Origin: Eledone cirrhosa
Lineage: Eukaryota
DNA: 64,000 nt
Assembly (NCBI GenBank): GCA_964016885.1
Contig: CAXHJY010001097.1
Coordinates: 62,001-126,000, forward strand
Reading direction: 5' to 3'
Shown here: positions 39,957 through 44,509 of the stretch, piece after piece
Numbering within the stretch: position 1 is the stretch's first letter
Layout of the letters: each line of letters begins with the position of its first letter
Notes under the pieces: model-generated
What the model was told of the DNA's origin: nothing
What the model saw: the letters and a program-made list of their open reading frames with translations, nothing else
Databases searched by the model: none
Translations under genes and position numbers: made by a program

Positions 39957-40293
39957 AGATGAAATCAAAAATGCAACTGGAGTCTTATTTTTAAAAAAAT
40001 ATATATATTTATTTGGTTCCTTTACCGGTTTCGCAGTTCTTCCCGCTTTTCAAAATTAGAGTTGAGATGGAGGGTCTGTGGTTTTCCTCACAAGAGAAAA
40101 ACCACAGACCCTCCATCTCAACTCTACTTTTGAAAAGCAGAAGAACTGCGAAACCGGTAAAGGAACCAAATAAATATATATATATTTTTTTAAATAAGAC
40201 TCCAGTTGCATTTTCGATTTCATCTTTTTTTCTTTATACTTTCACTCGTGTAGGACACCTCGGTTATTTTTCATTTTGTAAAAAAAACCTCAC

Positions 40294-40300: not shown

Positions 40301-40330
<30 letters not shown>

Positions 40331-40645
40331 GGAGGTGAGTTTTATTGTAGTACAATAAAGCAATGCAGATATCGGATAAGAAGCACTCTACAGTTTGTAG
40401 GACTGGAGTATACATAATATATAAGATATGTTGATTTAAAACTGCACTATCCACAAGTGTTTTTTAACCTTCATATCATGTCTTCCTATTTTATCTTATG
40501 AAAACACAAATATTATTGCATGATGATGTTTGTTTTTGAAATGCACATAATAAAATACATGGAACTCTTTTAACCATCTTTTGATCTTATATATTATATA
40601 TATATATAGTTAAAAGAATAGAGGTGTAACACACAAGTTATTATA

Positions 40646-41026
40646 TATTGGTAAACGGAATAGAAAATGCTGACAAATTGTTCACAGTTGAAAAATGGTT
40701 TAATTAGGAATAAAAGAGTATTAGTGATTGTATGGGTTAGTATTCAGTTGTGGTTTTAAGTTTTTAAGTTTTTACCGGTTGCGCATTTCTAAATGCTTTT
40801 CAAAAATAATTTTGAGATAGAGTGTCCGTGTTGATCAGAGCAAACAACACGGACACTCTATCTCAAAATTATTTTTGAAAAGCATTTAGAAATGCGCAAC
40901 CGGTAAAAACTTAAAAACTTAAAACCACAACTGAATACTAACCCATACAATCACTAATACTCTTTTATTCCTAATTAAACCATTTTTCAACTGTGAATAA
41001 TTTGTCAGCATTTTCTATTCCGTTTA

Positions 41027-41031
<5 letters not shown>
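40646..41031. mobile_element. Near-perfect ~190-bp-arm palindromic element with hammerhead-like cores, left arm only
   Basis: Arms mirror around atcagagcaaa (~40838); a single-arm copy lies at 8332-8521. Confidence 0.75.
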
Positions 41032-41087
<56 letters not shown>

Positions 41088-41920: not shown

Positions 41921-42028
41921 GGGGGAGGGGGTTGTATATAAATATTCACACACACATACACATAGATATACATATACTGTATATATATATACATATACAT
42001 ATATATCATATACACACATATACTGTAT

Positions 42029-44186: not shown

Positions 44187-44509
44187 TAGAAAGTGAGGGT
44201 TTTTTTTTACAAAATGAAAAATAACCGAGGTGTCCTACACGAGTGAAAGTATAAAGAAAAAGAGATGAAATCGAAAATGCAACTGAAGTCTTATTTTTTT
44301 AAAAGTACCAGTAATGTACCAGCCACTTTTTCCATATAAAACAAGTAACATTCAGAGACCAACCAGATGTGAGAAAAACCACAGACCCTCCATCTCAACT
44401 CACCTTTTGAAAAGCAGAAGAACTGCGAAACCGGTAAAGGAACCAAATAAATATATATATTTAAAAAAAAAATAAGACTTCAGTTGCATTTTCGATTTCA
44501 TCTCTTTTT

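What the first reader, a model, noticed from the sequence alone, without database searches (positions are those of the whole stretch)
40646..41031. A second, unrelated palindromic family has the same U3-A8 hammerhead layout with a different stem II and GCAA in place of GAAA
Seen: ttt-TTGAAAA-gcattt/ag/aaatgc-GCAA-CCGG-TA-aaa at 40872-40908, its inverse at ~40770-40806, and again in the single-arm copy at 8373-8408. Flanks are unrelated to family 1, yet the core, the CCGG-TA and a paired stem II of different sequence are kept, which amounts to cross-family covariation. A13C is present in all copies. Inferred: either a doubly variant ribozyme or a dead master copy that still spreads.
Basis: partly seen in the sequence, partly recalled or inferred. 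Interest (0 to 1): 0.7.

Follow-up and report, generated by a model that had tools for sequence, protein, structure and literature searches.

The report
Penelope retrotransposon with crippled hammerhead core
This palindrome is the clipped, folded-back end of a Penelope-type jumping gene whose self-cutting RNA motif carries a core change, predicted to slow or stop cutting, in about 99% of 11,000 matches, so it offers a natural test of whether such elements need their ribozyme.

Summary
The motif is real, at the stated places. The palindrome is not a MITE and not a separate family. It is the 3' pseudo-LTR of a Penelope-like element (RT + GIY-YIG, probably Neptune clade), inserted in (TA)n as two 5'-truncated arms, one with a 36-39 nt tail (window 40609-41030). 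Family 1 is a homologous sister element. The U3-A8 core is already published for Penelope hammerheads. What is new is A13C: 11,000 exact matches against 135 with another base, present in three subfamilies, and not the rule in three GAAA sister families. It is not one dead master. Intact two-pLTR copies exist, and RT-EN stayed under purifying selection between C13 subfamilies (dN/dS 0.15-0.29). The hammerhead block did not change (0 of 41 sites against 23 of 143 in the flanks). A competing hairpin is predicted to bury the core. Most likely this is a slowed or silent ribozyme whose fold is kept. Cleavage is untested and no RNA data were listed. The scan noted U3-A8, two-ended arms and a PLE frameshift on other DNA, but no A13C.

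The parts
40609..41030 (.). Whole insertion: two head-to-head, 5'-truncated pseudo-LTR arms of a Penelope-like element in (TA)n
   Evidence: the mirror arm of the window's large palindrome lacks 40323-41052
40609..40647 (-). 36-39 nt 'tail', on this arm only; in full-length copies it runs on into the 5' UTR and ORF1
   Evidence: loose (TA)n ends at two places 36 nt apart in independent contigs
40648..40832 (-). Left arm (pLTR, minus strand), tail-bearing
40773..40803 (-). Minimal type I hammerhead motif, U3-A8 and C13; predicted cut after GUA at 40773
40833..41030 (+). Right arm (pLTR, plus strand), ends at the short site ...TTTACCAA then (TA)n
40863..40878 (+). Predicted 6-bp hairpin (UCAAAA with UUUUGA) that buries core bases U3-A6; its 5' strand lies in the conserved block
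40875..40905 (+). Minimal type I hammerhead motif: UUGAAAA, 5-bp stem II, GCAA, palindromic ACCGGU, A17; stem I only 3 A-U pairs
8332..8520 (+). Single-arm, 5'-truncated copy of sister subfamily 2a (stem II GCATT-AGA-AATGC, also GCAA), short end
40130..40159 (+). Family 1 hammerhead (U3-A8, GAAA) of a homologous sister Penelope-like family; also at 42980-42951 (-) and 44407-44436 (+)

Best explanation
The palindrome is the 3' end of a 4.7-4.8 kb Penelope-like retrotransposon, present as two opposed, 5'-truncated arms in a TA repeat, and its hammerhead motif carries a family-wide A13C change that likely slows or silences self-cleavage without having stopped the family from spreading. Shown: the arm is the terminal repeat that flanks ORF1 and an RT + GIY-YIG ORF2; the ends fall at two fixed sites; C13 is fixed in three subfamilies. 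Inferred: the element's enzyme nicks (TA)n and starts reverse transcription inside the pLTR RNA at two sites about 37 nt apart. The two short cDNAs (or one that folds back) are joined at a self-complementary 4-mer such as GATC, which gives a palindrome with a tail on one arm only. The RT-EN protein is likely made by a -1 frameshift at U UUU UUA. The hammerhead-shaped block is likely still kept for something other than fast cutting, such as an RNA handle for the element's protein, slow protein-assisted dimer cleavage, or promoter sequence. My odds: negligible cleavage with the block kept for another role 0.5; slow or assisted cleavage 0.35; dead and conserved by chance 0.15.
For: Five of 30 loci run on from the arm through a 3' UTR into a GIY-YIG frame. 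Pfam gives RVT_1 (E 8.7e-8) and GIY-YIG (E 1.5e-6), both above cut-off. Five of 7 fetched long copies show two same-strand GCAA hammerheads 4,726-4,824 nt apart, and 4 of 7 have both frames open. All 18 loci scored as two-armed among 30 (12 independent insertions) have one tail end and one short end. Seven of 13 junctions centre exactly on GATC or GCGC. C13 against other bases: 11,000 to 135, and of the first 100 exceptions 51 are T, 33 A and 16 G, the pattern of decay after insertion (my hand count). Subfamily 2c, picked with a query lacking the motif: 27 C, 1 T, 0 A and 2 not assessable of 30. Sister families keep A13: 61 non-A matches in family 1; GAAA in all 12 family 3 loci; 97 of the first 100 in family 5. 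ORF2 between C13 subfamilies: dN/dS 0.29 (770 codons) and 0.15 (211 codons), pS 0.13-0.14. Monomer folding buries U3-G5 (P unpaired at most 0.02) in all three C13 subfamilies, against 0.20-0.27 in family 1. PMC4075628 (one passage, citing earlier work): A13 changes inhibit 10-100 fold. PMC11167929 (parts 1-2 of 4): two internal RT start sites make the tail, and hammerhead mutants do not impair insertion in vitro.
Against: The motif block has not drifted since C13 arose. Between subfamilies 2b and 2c, 0 of 25 scored hammerhead sites (6 more were lost to an alignment gap) and 0 of 16 upstream sites differ, against 23 of 143 flank sites (Fisher p 0.018, or 0.002 pooled). The only change is in loop II. 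That is what a still-working ribozyme would also show. A 10-100 fold loss is not zero. Folding models do not favour the hammerhead monomer in the GAAA families 3 and 5 either (P of pair 2.1-1.1 = 0.0), so misfolding does not single out family 2. The dN/dS values rest on single decayed copies. The insertion steps are inferred from DNA ends only. Neptune rather than Nematis was not tested on a tree.
Confidence: 0.75

Rival explanations
1. A working doubly variant hammerhead: U3-A8 plus C13 still cleaves at a useful rate as a dimer of tandem pLTRs, probably helped by the element's own protein, and selection keeps it.
For: The block is invariant across about 14-16% neutral divergence. The four closing pairs of stem II are intact in 47 of 47 arms scored in the loci and 27 of 30 in the loci. 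Two copies are predicted to pair through ACCGGU. The Anolis Poseidon hammerhead cuts only with protein (PMC11167929, parts 1-2).
Against: A13 is a consensus core base (PMC3088659, passages). Stem I has only 3 A-U pairs. A 6-bp hairpin is predicted to bury the U-turn. C13 is the rule in none of three sister families.
Confidence: 0.3
2. A dead master copy, or a non-autonomous stub, copied in trans by another family; the motif is a relic and its constancy is chance or reflects a recent burst.
For: Most copies are short stubs: about 11,000 motif matches against 340 exact matches at the ORF1/ORF2 junction. The ORF is split by a frameshift in 99 of the first 100 junctions. Young copies are 98-100% alike.
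Against: C13 spans three subfamilies about 16% apart in the pLTR flank. ORF2 is under purifying selection between two of them. The same -1 overlap with T TTT TTA is present in families 1 and 3, so it is a design and not damage.
Confidence: 0.07
3. The block is conserved as DNA promoter or start-site sequence of the pLTR (CCAAT, TGGCGC and TTTGAA words nearby), and the hammerhead shape is inherited baggage.
For: The conserved block includes 16 nt upstream of stem I that a hammerhead does not need. CCAAT and TGGCGC lie 120-185 nt upstream in families 1 and 2. PLE promoters lie in pLTRs (PMC6765202, passages). The reading of these words as NF-Y, E2F and CHR sites is recalled, not from a call.
Against: Changes between families keep base pairs, and change within family 2 is confined to loop II. 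Family 3 lacks those upstream words.
Confidence: 0.15
4. A TIR-type MITE of a DNA transposon.
For: It looks like a short perfect inverted repeat in TA.
Against: The ends are asymmetric in 18 of 18 two-armed loci, 12 of 30 loci scored as single-armed, arm length runs from about 190 nt to 1.8 kb, and the partner frame is RT + GIY-YIG, not a transposase.
Confidence: 0.01

Closest known systems
Minimal hammerheads of metazoan Penelope-like elements, including the U3-A8 variant of Schistosoma Cercyon elements (Cervera and de la Pena 2014, PMC4209133; parts 1-2 of 4 and search passages of the supplementary PDF seen)
   Same: Type I motif in the pLTR, short stem I, G10.1-C11.1, palindromic stem III that needs a dimer, U3-A8 pair, thousands of truncated copies, pairs on opposite strands 100-700 bp apart.
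   Different: C at position 13, fixed across a lineage (their consensus is GAAA; their descriptor would not have found GCAA). No extra base between A9 and G10.1. A predicted hairpin buries the core.
Neptune/Nematis-type C-terminal-EN Penelope-like elements (Craig et al. 2021, PMC8557442; passages seen)
   Same: RT then CX4CxxC linker then GIY-YIG with CxxC and His residues, DKG and GxKF motifs, partial tandems, inverted 5'-truncated copies, a 30-40 nt tail on one end, (TA)n targets. The Fig. 1 legend says ORF1 can be set off by a frameshift.
   Different: The clade was not placed on a tree here. The family itself seems undescribed in the papers searched. No clear pseudoknot follows the slippery site in family 2.
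Poseidon element of Anolis carolinensis, PAc (Frangieh et al. 2024, PMC11167929; parts 1-2 of 4 seen)
   Same: Two RT start sites 3' of the hammerhead that define the tail; AT-rich targets; both strands extended; hammerhead catalysis not needed for insertion in vitro.
   Different: PAc has a C3-G8 core and one ORF that starts inside the hammerhead. Here ORF1 starts 193 nt after the predicted cut and RT-EN is in the -1 frame.
Animal non-LTR retrozymes (bioRxiv 10.64898/2026.07.22.740005; part 1 of 5 seen)
   Same: Type I hammerhead of PLE origin, high copy number.
   Different: Retrozymes are non-coding tandem units. This is a truncated end of a coding element, not a tandem monomer.

Membership tests
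Penelope-like element (EN+) | RT domain followed by GIY-YIG endonuclease | tested here: met
Penelope-like element (EN+) | Pseudo-LTRs from partial tandems, inverted 5'-truncated copies | tested here: met
   5 of 7 long copies with two direct motifs; inverted 5' segments in L031, L033, L035, L097, L099
Penelope-like element (EN+) | 30-40 nt tail on one end only | tested here: met
   18 of 18 two-armed loci
Neptune clade | CX2-5CxxC motif upstream of a C-terminal GIY-YIG; (TA)n targets | tested here: met
   CX4CxxC in ORF2; TA flanks. The motif is shared with Nematis per PMC8557442.
Neptune clade | RT groups with reference Neptune RTs on a tree | not tested
   No named reference PLE sequences came from the tools; hits carry no clade names.
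Hammerhead ribozyme | Core C3/U3 U4 G5 A6 N7 G8/A8 A9 with a 3-8 pair | tested here: met
   UUGAAAA; U3-A8 published for PLEs
Hammerhead ribozyme | G12 A13 A14 A15.1 | tested here: not met
   C13 in 11,000 of 11,135 matches
Hammerhead ribozyme | Stem II with G10.1-C11.1; A15.1-U16.1; H17 | tested here: met
Hammerhead ribozyme | Stem I closing the junction | tested here: inconclusive
   3 A-U pairs only; predicted pair probability 0.0 in the monomer
Hammerhead ribozyme | Self-cleavage after H17 | not testable with these tools
   Needs an assay; no RNA holder was listed
TIR MITE | Symmetrical terminal inverted repeats and a cognate transposase | tested here: not met
Non-LTR retrozyme | Non-coding tandem monomers each with an intact hammerhead | tested here: not met
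   Tandem unit is the 4.7-4.8 kb coding element

The most novel reading that the evidence does not exclude
A natural U3-A8/C13 hammerhead, held in an off-state hairpin, is switched on by the element's own RT-endonuclease and has been kept by selection through three subfamilies. It would be the first lineage-wide A13 substitution in a working hammerhead that I could find, and a protein-gated ribozyme in a retrotransposon.
Probability: 0.25. Interest if true: 0.65.

Novelty: new variant of a known kind. Interest (0 to 1): 0.42.

Why it matters
What hammerheads do for Penelope-like elements is open: Craig et al. call the function unclear (PMC8557442, passages), and catalysis was dispensable in vitro (PMC11167929). 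This genome holds sister families that spread to many thousands of copies with A13 and with C13. If the C13 form is silent, a whole lineage has transposed for a long time without cleavage while keeping the fold, which points to a non-catalytic role. If it cleaves, the hammerhead core tolerates more than the consensus says, and GAAA-only searches miss abundant motifs. A 60-nt assay decides between the two.

Tried and rejected
Rfam scan: only sub-threshold microRNA-like hairpin hits among the 150 of 324 shown. Independent GCAA families: of 255 matches with another base at position 7, one group of look-alikes had no RT hit in its loci and ended in a TTAA/CCCT-type terminus like a DNA-transposon MITE (the piggyBac likeness is recalled), so I dropped it as a chance match. 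Family 5 has GAAA in 97 of the first 100. A few small groups (L140, L145, L168, L169) were not followed up. An alternative parse using the GAAA inside stem II fails, as no U16.1 follows. A retained intron ending at TTTTTTAG was considered as a rival to frameshifting. ORF1 has 0 stops in 193 and 178 codons of its low-complexity part while the other frames have 5-11, which favours coding, but this was not settled. No RNA holder listed. Contigs of five runs show no other letter at position 13 at the 5% level, but their kind is unknown and some may be the source sample; they are not used as independent support. Relatives in metagenome and GTDB contigs: none confirmed. Not-in-print claim for A13C rests on searches (0 papers with 'hammerhead ribozyme' + 'A13C'), 33, 63, 89 and passages. 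Lunse et al. 2017, the most likely place for such a variant, and a review of hammerhead mutant data were not held. The single-mutant values of PMC9901934 are in figures I could not see, and I saw only 9 of 14 'GCAA' places in the PMC4209133 supplement.

Full report
Observation. The window is repeat-rich animal DNA from a 3.0-Gb genome. A relaxed hammerhead scan of both strands found seven candidates. Three have TTGAAAA, a paired stem II, GCAA, CCGG and TA (40875-40905, 40803-40773 on the minus strand, 8376-8405). Three have the same layout with GAAA (family 1). One is an unrelated weak match. The core pattern occurs 32,671 times in the genome against 52 for the reversed control. The claim that the families are unrelated is wrong: they align at 74% over 143 nt, about 30 nt upstream of the core are shared, and stem II differs at 3 of 13 letters. 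Two of the differences between the families keep pairs (stem II pair 4, stem I pair 3).

What the palindrome is. A DNA search returned the 40 best-scored of 117 candidates, 92-100% alike over most of the arm. In the 30 loci fetched, ends fall at two fixed places. All 18 loci scored as two-armed have one end with a 36-39 nt tail and one without. These are 12 independent insertions, because six loci share flanks and two are the same place. Twelve loci scored as single-armed; two of these were mis-scored through variant letters (L003 has a tail, L015 has a second arm). The 5' side is variable, and 7 of 13 junctions centre exactly on GATC or GCGC. In the window the left arm carries the tail, so the insertion spans 40609-41030. 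The mirror arm of the window's large palindrome lacks 40323-41052. Five loci continue upstream through about 900 nt of UTR into a GIY-YIG frame, and Pfam confirms RT and GIY-YIG. Searching with the 5' part of the frame led back to the same repeat: pLTR, tail, then ATG 24 nt further on. Five of 7 long copies show two direct GCAA motifs 4,726-4,824 nt apart, and 4 of 7 have both frames open. This is the published Penelope-like layout of partial tandems, inverted 5'-truncated copies and a one-sided tail (PMC8557442 and PMC3846280, passages). A CX4CxxC linker before a C-terminal endonuclease and TA targets point to Neptune; Nematis is not excluded.

Coding design. ORF1 (455 codons stop to stop) overlaps the RT-EN frame (784), which is in the -1 frame. 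This form holds in 99 of the first 100 of 340 junction matches. Family 1 (L122, 49-60% protein identity) and family 3 show the same overlap. Each has T TTT TTA in the ORF1 frame and FF(R/K) in the -1 frame (for family 3, 9 loci picked from the commonest 777-codon class and 3 picked for fused frames). A programmed -1 frameshift is the likely reading. The Fig. 1 legend of PMC8557442 already mentions a frameshifted ORF1 in PLEs. So the split is not damage.

The A13C change. With the family 2 stem, C13 has 11,000 exact matches and other bases 135. These count arms, not insertions, and leave out subfamily 2c. Subfamily 2c was sampled with a query that lacks the motif: 27 C, 1 T, 0 A and 2 not assessable of 30. 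Families 1, 3 and 5 keep A13, so A is ancestral and C arose once. Apparent GCAA families elsewhere were chance matches or decayed copies. ORF2 of subfamily 2b against two 2a copies gives pS 0.13-0.14 and dN/dS 0.29 and 0.15; no 2c copy gave enough codons. The lineage therefore kept making protein after C13 was fixed. Between 2b (7 copies) and 2c (29 copies), 0 of 25 scored motif sites and 0 of 16 upstream sites differ, against 23 of 143 flank sites (p 0.018; 0.002 pooled). The single substitution is in loop II. Against activity: stem I is three A-U pairs, a 6-bp hairpin is predicted to bury U3-G5 in all three subfamilies, and A13 changes are reported to cost 10-100 fold (PMC4075628, one passage). 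The upstream conserved 16 nt include that hairpin's 5' strand. However, the models do not favour the hammerhead fold in families 3 and 5 either.

How it most likely works. Shown: pLTR position, two fixed ends, TA targets, coding frames, fixation and constancy of the block. Inferred from PMC11167929 (parts 1-2): the protein nicks TA-rich DNA and starts reverse transcription inside the pLTR RNA at two nearby sites, with no need for hammerhead cleavage. Early stops and joining at self-complementary 4-mers then give short palindromes. The ribozyme is likely slowed or silent, while the block is kept as a protein handle, a gated slow ribozyme or promoter sequence.

Known and new. U3-A8 in PLE hammerheads, opposite-strand pairs and low activity are in PMC4209133. 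Natural core variants in the passages of PMC3088659 include A6C, U13a and U15.1-A16.1, but not C13. I found no lineage-wide A13C in searches, but the key paper by Lunse et al. was not held. Earlier notes of this scan report U3-A8 cores, two-ended arms and a PLE frameshift on other DNA, and none mentions A13C. Verdict: a new variant of a known kind, of moderate interest as a ready natural test of what Penelope hammerheads are for.

Noticed in passing
L096:3597-3666; L129:2496-2583; L122 (minus strand, about 5770-5680): Three Penelope-like families 49-60% alike in protein share an ORF1/RT-EN overlap with T TTT TTA in the ORF1 frame: a likely -1 ribosomal frameshift. A retained intron ending at TTTTTTAG is the rival.
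   Followed up: partly
window about 19391-55181: A very large, degenerate inverted repeat centred near 41930, with many 86-98% arm pairs. Six loci (L001, L005-L008, L018) share the flanks of this insertion, so the region is itself repeated in the genome.
   Followed up: no
window 40326-40600: A second mobile segment in the same TA tract, absent from the mirror arm and found independently in L026, L033, L076, L077, L083, L105.
   Followed up: partly
window 40863-40878; L121, L129, L189 upstream of the core: A UCAA word 3-12 nt upstream of the core, complementary to U3-A6, occurs in families 1, 2, 3 and 5; it could be a shared off-switch strand.
   Followed up: partly
window 40628-40649 (minus strand): A predicted 9-pair hairpin with three G-U pairs begins at the short end and covers the first half of the tail: a candidate RT start structure.
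   Followed up: no
G000:C1:14371325-14371361 (L103), L128-L139, L176-L191: Two more U3-A8 GAAA families: family 3 (young, full-length tandem copies) and the older family 5 (732 matches), which keeps the GATG/CATC stem with a variable loop.
   Followed up: partly
L140, L168; L145, L169: Small repeated groups with TTGAGAA or TTGACAA followed by a short stem and AACCGGT; possibly more reduced hammerhead-like motifs.
   Followed up: no
L031:2884-5648, L033:2-2444, L034:1826-3064: Family 2 copies often sit inside or beside other Penelope-like elements with different RTs, consistent with shared TA targets.
   Followed up: no
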